This document shows positions 47,701 through 50,700 of a stretch of 64,000 bases of DNA, piece after piece. The DNA lies in NCBI GenBank assembly GCA_964106645.2, contig OZ067038.1; one strand, written 5' to 3'. The position numbers were made by a program. Origin of the DNA: Podarcis pityusensis (Eukaryota). Within the stretch, counting starts at the first letter, position 1. The number at the start of each line of letters is the position of its first letter.

Positions 47701-50700
47701 TTTTCTTCAAATTGCCATTTGGTCCAATTCAGTGGTAAAAAATGACTTTTTATTGGGAAAGCCTGGACCTTTACCTAGAAATGCAGAGCAAAGGGAAGTG
47801 TGGATGAATCCTAAGTAAGTTATCATAGAATATCATAAAATGCTTGTATAACCTGGAGGTAGGCTGTATGAATTGTGTATTGCTTTGTAACGATTTGTTG
47901 GGTCTCTGGACCATAATAAAGATTGTTGTTGTTGAATATCATAGAATTGTAGAGTTGGAAGGGACTACGAGGGTCATCTAGTCCAAGCCTCTACAGTGCA
48001 GGTATCATTTGCCCAACATGGGACTCATGGGACTCAAACCCAAGACCTTGAGGTTAAGAGTTTAATTCTCTACCAACTGAGCTACATGACTGACTGACTC
48101 AAACATACAGAAAATTACACAAGTATTGTCTCACAACTCAAGCAATTAGCAGGATCAAGCCAAGACGAGACAAGATGCCCAGTTGTGGTTTTGCATTAAC
48201 TTTGATTATCTGTTACAGATAGGTAGCCGTGTTGGTCTGCCATAGTCAAAATAAAAAAATCCTTCCAGTAGCACCTTTAAGACCAACTAAGTTAGTTCTT
48301 GGTATGAGCTTTCGTGTGCAAGCATGATTATCTGGTGATCACATGCCAGTCACTCAAGTCTTGCAGTCTGTGAAGTTTCTTGGAACAATAGAATGAAACA
48401 AGGAAGCTGGTGAGGAAACCTTTAGCAAAACAATAGAAAGGTGCCAGAAACTGGCAGATGATGTAGATGGAGAAGTTAGAGCACACAGACAAGTCATACA
48501 ACAGGAAAACCATGTCAATTATCCCAACAAATCCACAGAAGATCCCTACTTATCGCCTCGCTGAGGACTCATTTCAGTGATGAAATCAACCTGCCTCCAA
48601 TTTGTTGAAACTACACCCACGTCAGATTTGCCACAGTGAAGAAAGAGACTTTGTTACTTGCCTTGGTGTGAGCTGTGGTCAAATGGCATAAAAAAAGAAA
48701 TCCACAGCAATACACATAAAACGCACATAAAAACTCTTGCCTGCTATCATAATGGCCATCCTTACAGCACTTTCCCTCCCAGTTACAATTGAGCGATCCT
48801 TCAGCACTTTGCATAGGGTGAAGACATGGCTACAATGAGTGAAAAATTGATTGTCTGGCTTGTGTTTGTTGAGTGTCCATAGAGAAAAGTTGAAGGAGAA
48901 ATGTATAAAAGAAGTTATTGACCGTTTTGGCCAAGACTCTCAAAGATTCCAGGTTTTTTTGTTTTGTTTTTTGTTTAAATAATGATCCATTTTGTATTGT
49001 ATTCCCCTTTTTGTTAAGGACAGACAGGCATTAACAAAAATAAGTCAGAATGGTTCAGACCTCACTTTTTGTGGGGCAGAAGTTGTTGTCCATATCACTT
49101 CTGTATTGGTGAAATGCTTGATAGTTGCAGATACTCATGTACTTTTAAATTATATTTCTGTAGTGTGGGGGTTCACAGCAGGACAGCAAAAGTGGATTTT
49201 GTGAGCCTTAAGAAAGCCTGGAAGGACAAATACTTCAAGCCTGGAAGGACAAATACCGGCTGTCTATCACACAATGGCATGAGGACCTCACTGCCCTGGC
49301 TACATTTCAATGTATTTCATATAGCCATCAATTTTGCATGGACAACTGGAGGGCTTGTATTAATTTATATGCTTAACTTAAGATGCCTGTATTGATGGTT
49401 AAAAAGGTAAAGGTACCCCTGACCGTTAGGTCCAGTCTCGGACGACTCTGGAGTGGCGCGCTCATCTCATTCTATAGGCCGAGGGAGCCGGTGTTTGTCT
49501 TCAGACAGTTTTTCCAGGTCATGTGGCCAGCATGACTATAAGCTGCTTTTGGCCTTGCAAGGAAACGCCGTTTACCTTCCTTGGTACCTATTTATCTACT
49601 TGCACTTGATGTACATGTACTTTCGAACTGCTAGGTGGGCAGGAGTTGGGACCGAACAATGGGAGCTCACCCTGTTGCGGGGATTCGAACTGCCGACCTT
49701 CCGATCGGCAAGCCCTAGGCTCTGTGGTTTAGACCACAGCGCCACCCACGTCCCTTGTATTGATGGTTACTGTATCCTAAATGTGAGCTGATGGTGGTTT
49801 TTATTGTGCTGTTATTGTTATTCATATGTGGTTTCTTTCCCTTTATAATGCTGCAAAACCTGTCATTTTACTTTATTTCCTTTGTAAAATTTGCAAAAGG
49901 AGGAGCAAAAGGCAGAGGAAGGCAGCAAAGGCATGAAATGGGGAAAATTCTCTCATCCCTGTCCTAGTTTTAATGCCCCACCTCCAAACAACAACAGCAA
50001 GCCATAGGCATGTAGTGGCACACAGACCAACAGCAAGGGAATTATTTGTTTTTAATTAAACTCCTCTTCTATACCCATGTTCCCACGTAAAAGTTCGATA
50101 GCCCAAATGCCGTTTACTCTGCATTACTGGTTTATTCAGCTGAATGAGTCTCTAGGAGTGCATTTCCCCCCCTATTAACAGCGGAGTTTAGTATTAGTCC
50201 GAGCGCTGCTTAAACGAATTTGCTGATCGCAGCTCCAAGTCACATTGCCTTTATTCACACCATCAACTAAACACACATAATTTGGCACATGGCGTGGCGC
50301 CCACTTAAAGGATGCCGAACATTAAAGCCGTACCGGGAGACGGTGTAACTTCTTCACGCTTTCTGAGAGAATTCTAGGTTCTAGGTTTTCACTCATTGTA
50401 GCCATGTCTTCACCCTATGCAAAGTGCTGAAGGATCGCTCAATTGTAACTGGGAGGGAAAGTGCTGTAAGGATGGCCATTATGATAGCAGGCAAGAGTTT
50501 TTATGTGCGTTTTATGTGTATTGCTGTGGATTTCTTTTTTTATGCCATTTGACCACAGCTCACACCAAGGCAAGTAACAAAGTCTCTTTCACGCTTTCTG
50601 AGAGAATTCTAGAGGCTAGGTTTAAGGTAAATATATATTGGGCGAGAGAAAGAGGAAAGTGGACCTCCTCTCCCAGCTCATTATTAGCAAAGATTCTGGT

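What the first reader, a model, noticed from the sequence alone, without database searches (positions are those of the whole stretch)
48641..50612. Locally templated 205-bp inverted insertion with a 25-bp target-site duplication
Seen in sequence: 50386-50590 is an apparently exact reverse complement of unique DNA at 48641-48845, 1.54 kb upstream. The copy is bracketed by a 25-bp direct repeat (50353-50377 and 50588-50612). The left junction has an 8-nt filler that repeats ttctagg. The right junction overlaps by ttc, and donor and target both carry ttcttcac there. The donor has no duplication, TIRs or tail, so it is not a transposon. Inference: a very recent template-switch or break-repair insertion (MMBIR or polymerase-theta-like). 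If transcribed, the two arms could form a 205-bp dsRNA stem looping out a Sauria SINE and a CNE-like block about 1.2 kb upstream of the candidate exon's acceptor, which could affect A-to-I editing or splicing.
Basis: partly seen in the sequence, partly recalled or inferred. Interest (0 to 1): 0.72.

Follow-up and report, generated by a model that had tools for sequence, protein, structure and literature searches.

The report
Local inverted templated insertion, lizard-like DNA
A 205-base piece of a dead transposon gene was copied backwards into a site 1.5 kb away, with a short duplication of the target on each side; this is a clean example of a known kind of DNA copying error and has no shown function.

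Summary
48641-48845 and 50386-50590 are 205 nt and 100% reverse-complementary. The copy is bracketed by an exact 25-nt direct repeat. Of 17 self-matches of 100 nt or more in the window, this is the only one at 100%; the next is 92.6%.

Three details need correcting.
- The duplication runs to 36 nt at 33/36. The 3 mismatches are contiguous and followed by a shared 8-mer (D1), so the "8-nt filler" has a second reading.
- The donor is not anonymous DNA. It is an internal piece of a decayed hAT transposase gene, which also shows which arm is the original.
- "Very recent" means only younger than about 3-15 My, under assumed mutation rates.

Best explanation, confidence 0.62: a microhomology-guided, synthesis-dependent templated insertion. 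This could be two template switches at a fork (FoSTeS/MMBIR type) or the same steps at a staggered break.

A LINE-mediated retro-insertion fits the duplication and a TTT/AA nick site. It lacks a poly(A) tail and a poly(A) signal.

Misassembly, genome-wide copy number, the empty allele and transcription could not be tested. The dsRNA stem folds in silico, but its consequences are conjecture.

This is a new member of a known kind, of low to moderate interest.

The parts
48641..48845 (+). Donor (original) segment, 205 nt. It is an internal piece of the hAT transposase relic, roughly residues 650-745 of a 793-aa relative.
   Evidence: Searches show the exact inverted match. In one search the tblastn alignment of P0003 residues 625-790 runs through both ends of this segment (48563-48955), so this arm sits in its native context.
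50386..50590 (-). Inserted copy, the exact reverse complement of the donor.
   Evidence: In one search only residues 709-745 of P0003 align here (50497-50396, minus strand), and the homology stops at the insert's edge.
50353..50388 (.). Left copy of the duplicated target. It is exact for 25 nt (50353-50377). Then come 3 differing nt (50378-80), then CTAGGTTT shared with the right copy. The last TTT also matches the donor.
   Evidence: family D1 (36 nt, 92%); (25/25 exact).
50588..50623 (.). Right copy of the duplicated target, presumably the ancestral wording. Its first 3 nt (TTC, 50588-50590) overlap the end of the insert.
   Evidence: family D1.
50378..50385 (.). It makes TTCTAGG a perfect tandem (50372, 50379). 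Alternatively it is a 3-nt change inside a 36-nt duplication.
   Evidence: 7-mer positions; D1.
50350..50357 (.). Target copy of the 8-mer TTCTTCAC, also present in the reverse-complemented donor at 48636-48643. It straddles the right junction 3 nt out of register.
   Evidence: longest run 8; chance 147/100,000.
46938..48955 (+). Decayed hAT-superfamily transposase gene relic with in-frame stops. It hosts the donor.
   Evidence: translations with stops; 15 hits at E<=0.01 among 79 candidates, best 1.8e-14; 12 of 15 carry PF05699; residues 292-353 at 46938-47129 and 625-790 at 48563-48955. Pfam itself found nothing at E<=1 in three pieces.
48846..50385 (.). 1540-nt spacer between the arms, which would be the loop if transcribed. 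It holds the end of the hAT relic, a 20-nt exact tandem pair (49214-49233 and 49237-49256) and a SINE.
   Evidence: D3, D10.
49402..49755 (-). tRNA-derived SINE flanked by a 14-nt exact target-site duplication (49388-49401 and 49756-49769). The name 'Sauria SINE' and the orientation come from reading and recall, not from a tool.
   Evidence: family D10. ARAGORN found no tRNA in 48000-52500 and Rfam had no match here.

Best explanation
This is a one-off DNA copying accident in the germ line, not a mobile element.

Proposed steps, reading the + strand:
1. A growing 3' end had copied the target as far as ...CTAGGTTT (equivalent to 50623).
2. It left its template and paired with the A-run at 48842-48846 on the opposite-sense template, 1.5 kb behind.
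3. It copied 205 nt leftwards, to 48641.
4. It came off again and re-paired through TTC with the original template, 36 nt (or 25 nt) behind the point it had left.
5. It went on, writing the target stretch a second time.

The result is target - inverted copy - target, with the donor untouched.

The stutter at the left junction (3 changed nt, equivalent to a perfected TTCTAGG tandem) is taken as abortive re-priming or low-fidelity synthesis during the same event.

Two settings give the same product and cannot be told apart here:
- A stalled fork whose leading strand switches to the lagging-strand template behind it and back (FoSTeS/MMBIR type).
- A staggered double-strand break whose 3' overhang primes synthesis on the nearby donor and then anneals to the tip of the other overhang (synthesis-dependent microhomology-mediated end joining, polymerase-theta-like).

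Shown: the anatomy. Inferred: every enzymatic step.

Consequence: a perfect 205-bp inverted repeat with a 1.54-kb spacer. It would form a long dsRNA stem only if the region is transcribed.
For: - Exact 205-nt inverted copy with sharp ends, donor retained, 1540 nt away in cis.
- Direction is fixed. The donor arm is collinear within the hAT relic alignment, which runs across both of its ends. The other arm holds only the matching fragment.
- It is not a repeat-family member within the window. There is no third copy, and it is the only one of 17 pairs of 100 nt or more at 100%, the next being 92.6%.
- No terminal inverted repeats and no tail.
- Right junction: 3-nt overlap inside an 8-mer shared by donor and target, chance 0.0015.
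- Left junction: untidy in the way known for such events. It shows either 3 adjacent changes inside the duplicated block or an 8-nt locally templated filler.

Published descriptions (passages read):
- Germline templated insertions from inverted nearby templates, with microhomology and up to five template switches (PMC8421209).
- BIR/MMBIR described as low in fidelity and processivity, with point mutations at junctions (PMC4352052).
- Small duplications from fill-in of complementary 3' protrusions, with TMEJ products showing microhomology (PMC8355091).
Against: - No read, population or cross-species evidence shows that the structure exists in the animal.
- Left-junction microhomology (3 nt) is at chance level.
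- The 8-mer at the right junction was noticed after the fact and is used out of register, so only TTC is actually shared at the join.
- 205 nt from 1.5 kb away is long and far for polymerase-theta inserts (size range recalled, not from a call). It is also far for the yeast fold-back insertions, which are 2 to about 150 bp and mostly under 14 bp (PMC11724301).
- Under the 36-nt parse the empty site reads GTTT/AA on the primed strand. This is 5 of 6 positions of the L1 nick consensus, and TTTAA occurs at only 0.0021 of window positions. That favours the reverse-transcription rival.
- Genome-wide copy number of the 205-mer is unknown, and it comes from a transposon.
Confidence: 0.62

Rival explanations
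1. Fragment capture at a staggered break. Two nicks 25-36 nt apart on opposite strands gave a break whose overhangs were filled in, which produced the duplication. A free 205-nt DNA fragment released from the neighbouring region, such as an unprocessed flap or excised piece, was then ligated in by end joining, with no in-situ synthesis on the donor.
For: - Flanking duplication of 25-36 nt with junction overlaps of only 0-3 nt.
- Fill-in of overhangs is an established source of small duplications (PMC8355091).
- Insertions of genomic fragments at breaks rise in flap-nuclease and RPA mutants of yeast (PMC11724301).
Against: - The 8-mer shared by donor and target at the right junction (chance 0.0015) points to annealing-guided joining rather than blind ligation.
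- Captured fragments in those studies come from all over the genome, whereas this donor is 1.5 kb away in cis.
- The product does not differ from the best explanation, so the sequence alone cannot decide.
Confidence: 0.12
2. Assembly, cloning or library artefact. The inverted copy and duplication arose in a clone, an amplification step or a chimeric read, and were carried into the consensus. The animal would then have the single-copy target.
For: - Perfect identity of arms and repeats is what a recent in-vitro or in-clone event would give.
- Template-switch chimeras with inverted nearby sequence are a known artefact of amplification and cloning (recalled, not from a call).
- No read evidence could be consulted.
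Against: - The structure has ordered, biologically typical junctions: duplication, microhomology and local stutter.
- It is the only such pair in 64 kb.
- A consensus normally needs several concordant reads (general knowledge). The assembly method is unknown to me.
Confidence: 0.12
3. LINE-mediated retro-insertion (target-primed reverse transcription) of a local transcript.
1. A LINE endonuclease nicked the + strand at GTTT/AA.
2. The TTT-3' end primed on the internal A5 run of a + strand transcript.
3. 205 nt were reverse-transcribed.
4. The 5' end was joined through TTC microhomology, and the staggered second nick gave a 36-nt target-site duplication.
For: - The geometry fits exactly under the 36-nt parse. 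The duplicated block ends in TTT next to the cDNA start, the donor has A5 there, and the empty site reads CCTT|AAACC on the insert-sense strand against L1 TT|AAAA.
- TTTAA occurs at only 0.0021 of positions.
- Class 1 templated sequence insertions have a duplication of 5 bp or more and a TTTT/A site (PMC5110952).
- An active retroposon machinery is attested by the SINE with an intact 14-nt duplication between the arms (D10).
Against: - There is no non-templated poly(A); class 1 events carry 10-40 A.
- There is no AATAAA or ATTAAA in the donor.
- The duplication is longer than the 'typically no more than 20 bp' given for such insertions (PMC13295347).
- The two copies of the duplication differ by 3 adjacent nt on the primer side, where this mechanism makes no new DNA.
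- A donor 1.5 kb from the target in cis is not expected for trans-mobilised RNA (inference).
- Under the 25-nt parse the site is not endonuclease-like.
- Transcription of the donor is unshown.
Confidence: 0.07
4. Two members of one repeat family. The second arm would be an independent insertion of a fragment of the same hAT family, or of a derived short element, rather than a copy of the neighbouring relic.
For: The 205-mer is transposon-derived, and its genome-wide copy number was not testable.
Against: - The copy reproduces the local relic letter for letter, including its in-frame stop at 48836-48838. Other interspersed repeat pairs in the window are at most 92.6% alike.
- The segment is an arbitrary internal piece with no terminal inverted repeats.
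- The duplication is 25-36 nt, not the 8 bp of hAT elements (the 8-bp figure is recalled).
- There is no other copy in 64 kb.
Confidence: 0.04

Closest known systems
Microhomology-mediated templated insertions of the FoSTeS/MMBIR type ('MMB-TI'; PMC8421209, passages read)
   Same: - The insert is copied from a nearby template in inverted orientation.
- The donor is kept.
- There is microhomology at the junctions.
- There are extra small switches or errors at a junction.
- Such events are found as germline variants that do not disrupt genes.
   Different: The described events are detected as short insertions from short-read data. Here the insert is 205 nt, the template is 1.5 kb away, and the return lands 25-36 nt behind the departure point, which leaves a flanking duplication. 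I could not see their supplementary tables to compare sizes and distances.
Small inverted triplications, DUP/IN/DUP (PMC13334657, passages read), and the larger DUP-TRP/INV-DUP rearrangements (PMC11293582, listing only)
   Same: - The topology is direct duplication - inverted fragment - direct duplication.
- The sizes are within range: flanks from 7 bp, inverted fragment median 160 bp.
[quoted passage not shown]
   Different: There the inverted fragment copies the duplicated segment itself across a spacer of about 30 bp, so one segment is present three times. Here the inverted fragment comes from 1,507-1,540 nt away, and nothing is triplicated: two different segments are each present twice.
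Polymerase-theta-mediated end joining with templated inserts, or synthesis-dependent MMEJ (PMC7165422 and PMC2943611, listings and abstracts only)
   Same: - Priming from a few terminal bases.
- Repeated abortive synthesis that leaves locally templated filler.
- Microhomology near the 3' tips.
- Small duplications at breaks with 3' protrusions when TMEJ acts (PMC8355091).
   Different: Typical inserts are a few to tens of nt, templated within tens of nt of the break (recalled). This one is 205 nt, error-free, from 1.5 kb away.
Class 1 templated sequence insertion polymorphisms and processed retrocopies made by LINE-1 ORF2p (PMC5110952, passages read)
   Same: A flanking duplication, a T-rich/A nick site under one parse, microhomology at the 5' junction, and a non-LINE sequence inserted.
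   Different: No added poly(A), no poly(A) signal, a cis-local donor, a duplication longer than usual, and a duplication whose two copies differ.
Inverted-repeat dsRNA sources in introns, such as inverted Alu pairs as ADAR substrates, and hairpin-RNA genes born by inverted duplication (recalled, not from a call)
   Same: Two inverted copies within 2 kb would fold into a long stem if co-transcribed. All 205 positions pair in register in the predicted structure on either strand.
   Different: Transcription, editing and small RNAs are all unshown here. The stem is perfect, whereas repeat-pair stems are mismatched.

Membership tests
Microhomology-mediated templated insertion (FoSTeS/MMBIR type) | Inserted tract is a copy of nearby sequence and the donor is retained (copy, not cut) | tested here: met
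   205/205 identity, donor intact in its relic context.
Microhomology-mediated templated insertion (FoSTeS/MMBIR type) | Microhomology at the switch points | tested here: inconclusive
   Right junction: TTC overlap inside a shared 8-mer, chance 0.0015. Left junction: TTT only under the 36-nt parse, at chance level 0.76, and none under the 25-nt-plus-filler parse.
Microhomology-mediated templated insertion (FoSTeS/MMBIR type) | Signs of low processivity or fidelity at junctions (extra switches, nearby substitutions) | tested here: met
   Three adjacent differences, equivalent to an 8-nt locally templated stretch, lie next to the left junction. The arms themselves are error-free.
Microhomology-mediated templated insertion (FoSTeS/MMBIR type) | Arises during replication or break-induced replication (enzyme dependence) | not testable with these tools
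   Needs genetics or replication-direction data.
Small inverted triplication (DUP/IN/DUP) | Flanking direct duplications around a central inverted fragment | tested here: met
   25-36-nt duplications around a 205-nt inverted fragment.
Small inverted triplication (DUP/IN/DUP) | The inverted fragment copies the duplicated segment across a short spacer, so that a segment is present three times | tested here: not met
   The donor lies 1,507 nt from the duplicated block, and no segment occurs three times.
LINE-mediated retro-insertion (class 1 TSIP / retrocopy) | Target-site duplication of at least 5 bp | tested here: met
   25 nt exact, or 36 nt at 33/36.
LINE-mediated retro-insertion (class 1 TSIP / retrocopy) | Insertion at a TTTT/A-type endonuclease site | tested here: inconclusive
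   GTTT/AA under the 36-nt parse; CTAG/AG under the 25-nt parse.
LINE-mediated retro-insertion (class 1 TSIP / retrocopy) | Non-templated poly(A) tract (10-40 A) or other LINE-type tail | tested here: not met
   Only 4 T/A at the junction, all accounted for by the donor's A5 run.
LINE-mediated retro-insertion (class 1 TSIP / retrocopy) | Poly(A) signal 10-20 nt upstream of the tail | tested here: not met
   No AATAAA or ATTAAA anywhere in the 205-nt donor.
hAT or other cut-and-paste transposon / MITE insertion | Terminal inverted repeats and a family-typical short duplication (8 bp for hAT, recalled) | tested here: not met
   Ends match 7/20 and 8/20 in register. The duplication is 25-36 nt.
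Dispersed repeat family | Many copies with the same ends elsewhere in the genome | not testable with these tools
   Only two copies in the 64-kb window. No genome of this organism or of relatives was available.

The most novel reading that the evidence does not exclude
The accident created a new-born hairpin-RNA locus. This is a perfect 205-bp stem made of the most conserved part of a hAT transposase gene (the dimerisation-domain region), with a 1.5-kb loop. If it lies in a germline-expressed transcript, it would be hyper-edited by ADAR or diced into small RNAs able to act on related hAT elements. That would be a transposon-silencing trigger caught at birth in a reptile.
Probability: 0.04. Interest if true: 0.6.

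Novelty: new member of a known kind. Interest (0 to 1): 0.3.

Why it matters
If real, this is a well-preserved germline record of a two-switch templated insertion in a reptile. Donor, product and both junctions are intact. The donor's direction is fixed independently, because it sits in a recognisable gene relic.

Such cases help calibrate how far (1.5 kb) and how long (205 nt) these switches can reach in vertebrate germ lines. They also show how flanking duplications that look like transposon footprints can arise without any transposon.

The event also creates a long perfect inverted repeat, which is raw material for dsRNA or for later rearrangement. No function is shown. The event lies in repeat-rich, apparently non-coding DNA, so its value is as an example rather than as a discovery.

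Tried and rejected
- **Pfam on the relic.** Three pieces (48731-48967, 46983-47132, 48397-48636) gave 0 families at E<=1. The relic was recognised only through the large protein search and tblastn with a named relative.
- **RNA genes.** ARAGORN found no tRNA in 48000-52500. Rfam at gathering thresholds gave 2 matches in the whole window, both tRNA-like and both outside the arms. The arms are therefore no known RNA gene.
- **Coding context.** The 115 stop-to-stop ORFs of 90 aa or more were read by eye only. None was tested for homology, so no statement on a host gene is made. The 'candidate exon' and the 'CNE-like block' stay unverified.
- **hAT-type aberrant transposition.** Rejected because the relic is decayed, there are no terminal repeats, and the duplication has the wrong length.
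- **Post-insertion mutation as the source of the 3 adjacent differences.** Judged unlikely, because the remaining 205 + 33 paired positions carry none. This is an inference.
- **Literature.** A search for microhomology + template switch + lizard listed 7 papers, none on such events in squamates by title or abstract start.
- **Not available or not used.**
  - There was no genome of this or related species, and no reads.
  - Genome contigs (bacteria and archaea) and the phage, plasmid and E. coli collections were not used, being irrelevant.
  - Supplementary tables of PMC13334657 and PMC8421209 were closed. They may list events with long spacers or flanking duplications, and so may bear on how unusual this architecture is.
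- **Spliced models.** None was built or searched. The relic pieces were searched separately and never joined.
- **Origin.** I do not take the window for human. The SINE content looks squamate, by recall.
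Full report
**What is there**

Window 48641-48845 and 50386-50590 are 205 nt long and exactly reverse-complementary, with 1540 nt between them (pair I1; string equality). The match stops abruptly at both ends. With about 140 nt of flank on either side of the donor, a sensitive blastn (word 7) extends nothing and finds no further copy in the 64-kb window.

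A self-comparison of the whole window gave 55 pairs, 17 of them 100 nt or longer. This is the only one at 100%. The next best is 92.6% and the median 82.1%, all interspersed repeats.

**The junctions**

The copy is bracketed by an exact 25-nt direct repeat, 50353-50377 and 50588-50612. The repeat finder extends this to 36 nt (50353-50388 and 50588-50623) at 33/36. The three mismatches are adjacent (50378-80 against 50613-15), and an 8-mer shared in register follows them (family D1). An in-register 8-mer has a chance of about 2e-5.

Two parses are therefore possible:
- A 36-nt duplication with a 3-nt change. Its last TTT also matches the donor's A-run (48842-48846).

At the right junction the insert and the duplication overlap by TTC (50588-50590). 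The reverse-complemented donor and the target both carry TTCTTCAC there (48636-48643 and 50350-50357), 3 nt out of register. A shared run of 8 within +/-10 nt and +/-3 nt of offset arose in 147 of 100,000 random position pairs from the window. The 3-nt match at the left junction is at chance level, 0.76.

**Which arm is the original, and what it is**

The donor lies in a decayed gene on the + strand. Its translation reads through stop codons as the conserved end of a hAT-superfamily transposase.

- Pfam did not recognise three pieces at E<=1.
- A 79-residue read-through of 48731-48967, with X at two TGA codons, found 15 proteins at E<=0.01 among 79 candidates. The best was 1.8e-14 at 57% identity.
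- Of those 15, 12 carry PF05699 (hAT C-terminal dimerisation) and 9 carry PF14291.
- Four are named '52 kDa repressor of the inhibitor of the protein kinase-like' by their source.

tblastn with the named 793-aa member P0003 gave 4 matches at E<=1:
- residues 292-353 at 46938-47129 (+);
- residues 625-790 at 48563-48955 (+);
- residues 709-745 at 50497-50396 (-);
- one at E=0.58, not significant.

The + strand alignment runs through both ends of the 205-nt segment, so that arm is in its native context. The other arm holds only the matching fragment. The direction of copying is therefore fixed, and 'unique DNA' must be qualified: the segment is transposon-derived, and its uniqueness is shown only within this window.

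The copy reproduces the relic's in-frame stop (48836-48838). It has no terminal inverted repeats (7/20 and 8/20), no tail and no poly(A) signal. It is an arbitrary internal chunk, not a mobile unit.

**Mechanism**

The product has the form A-B-C becoming A-B-C-A'-C. The simplest way to write this is with one growing 3' end and two template switches:
1. The end copied C up to ...GGTTT.
2. It moved to the opposite-sense template 1.5 kb behind, at the A-run.
3. It copied 205 nt.
4. It returned through TTC to the start of C and copied C again.

Read this way, a rightward fork whose leading strand switches to the lagging-strand template behind it is the natural setting, since single-stranded DNA is expected there. 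This is inference.

The same steps can be drawn at a staggered break. One 3' overhang primes on the donor. Its extended end then anneals to the very tip of the other overhang, where the TTC lies.

The literature passages I read describe each ingredient:
- Germline templated insertions from inverted nearby templates, with microhomology and several switches (PMC8421209).
- Low fidelity and low processivity of BIR/MMBIR, with point mutations at junctions (PMC4352052).
- A duplication-inverted fragment-duplication architecture made by a switch to the opposite direction and a return (PMC13334657).
- Small duplications from fill-in of complementary 3' protrusions, with microhomology when TMEJ acts (PMC8355091).

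I therefore rate a microhomology-guided, synthesis-dependent templated insertion at 0.62. I cannot separate the fork version from the break version.

**Rivals**

Under the 36-nt parse the primed strand reads GTTT/AA, which is 5 of 6 positions of the L1 consensus. TTTAA occurs at only 0.0021 of positions. The cDNA would start in the donor's A5 run, and the geometry of duplication and 5' microhomology fits. Against it:
- Class 1 insertions are defined by an added poly(A) of 10-40 and a poly(A) signal (PMC5110952), and both are absent.
- Such duplications are 'typically no more than 20 bp' (PMC13295347).
- The two copies of the duplication differ on the primer side, where that mechanism makes no new DNA.
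- A donor 1.5 kb away in cis is not what trans-mobilised RNA predicts.

I give it 0.07.

*Other rivals:*
- Capture of a free fragment at a filled-in staggered break (0.12) gives the same product. Only the shared 8-mer and the cis distance disfavour it.
- An assembly, cloning or amplification artefact (0.12) cannot be excluded without reads.
- An independent repeat-family insertion (0.04) is unlikely, given letter-perfect identity to a decayed local copy.

**Age**

Zero differences over 205 (or 230) paired positions give a 95% upper bound of 3.3-14.6 My, for rates of 2e-9 to 0.5e-9 per site per year. The rates are my assumption, not a measured value for this species. 'Very recent' is therefore not established. 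The three adjacent differences in the duplication are more simply part of the event than a later mutation, since nothing else has changed.

**Consequences**

Folded as RNA, the 1950-nt stretch pairs all 205 arm positions in register on either strand. The arm duplex is about -397 kcal/mol. Whether the region is transcribed is unknown.

No known RNA family lies on the arms. The ORF list was read only by eye. The 'candidate exon' and 'CNE-like block' of the finding were not verified by any search. Editing, splicing or small-RNA effects are conjecture.

**What stayed unchecked**

- Reads across the junctions, genome-wide copy number, the empty allele in conspecifics or related lizards, and transcription.
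- No eukaryotic genome collection was on hand.
- Supplementary files of the papers were closed, and they may list comparable events.
The relic pieces were searched one by one and never joined.
- I do not take the window for human.

**Verdict**

This is a clean new example of a known class of templated insertion. It sits closest to FoSTeS/MMBIR-type events and is a long-spacer, non-triplicated cousin of small inverted triplications. Interest is 0.3.

Noticed in passing
46938-48955 (+): A decayed hAT-superfamily transposase gene relic (P52rIPK-like; PF14291 + PF05699 architecture in its relatives). Residues 292-353 and 625-790 of a 793-aa relative lie about 500 nt further apart than the coding length predicts, so something has been inserted into it or its middle has decayed beyond recognition.
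   Followed up: partly
49388-49769: A tRNA-derived SINE (about 354 nt, apparently on the minus strand) with an intact 14-nt exact target-site duplication. It sits in the spacer between the arms. The family name 'Sauria SINE' is recalled and not tested.
   Followed up: partly
49214-49256: An exact 20-nt tandem pair (AAGCCTGGAAGGACAAATAC) with a start-to-start spacing of 23 nt. This is a small local duplication in the spacer (family D3).
   Followed up: no
51683-51739 (+) and 55899-55959 (+): Two tRNA-family matches in Rfam, at 35 and 51.9 bits. ARAGORN called no tRNA in 48000-52500, so the first is probably the head of a tRNA-derived SINE. The second was not examined.
   Followed up: no
51238-51491 vs 38935-39190, 42999-43414 vs 8483-8899, 61578-61905 vs 5911-6239: Three inverted pairs of interspersed repeats at about 92-93% identity. 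They are the youngest repeat families visible in the window and a useful yardstick for how exceptional 100% identity is.
   Followed up: no
50060-50352: The stretch just left of the insertion site is free of recognisable repeats in the self-comparison and is relatively CpG-rich by eye. Conservation could not be tested.
   Followed up: no
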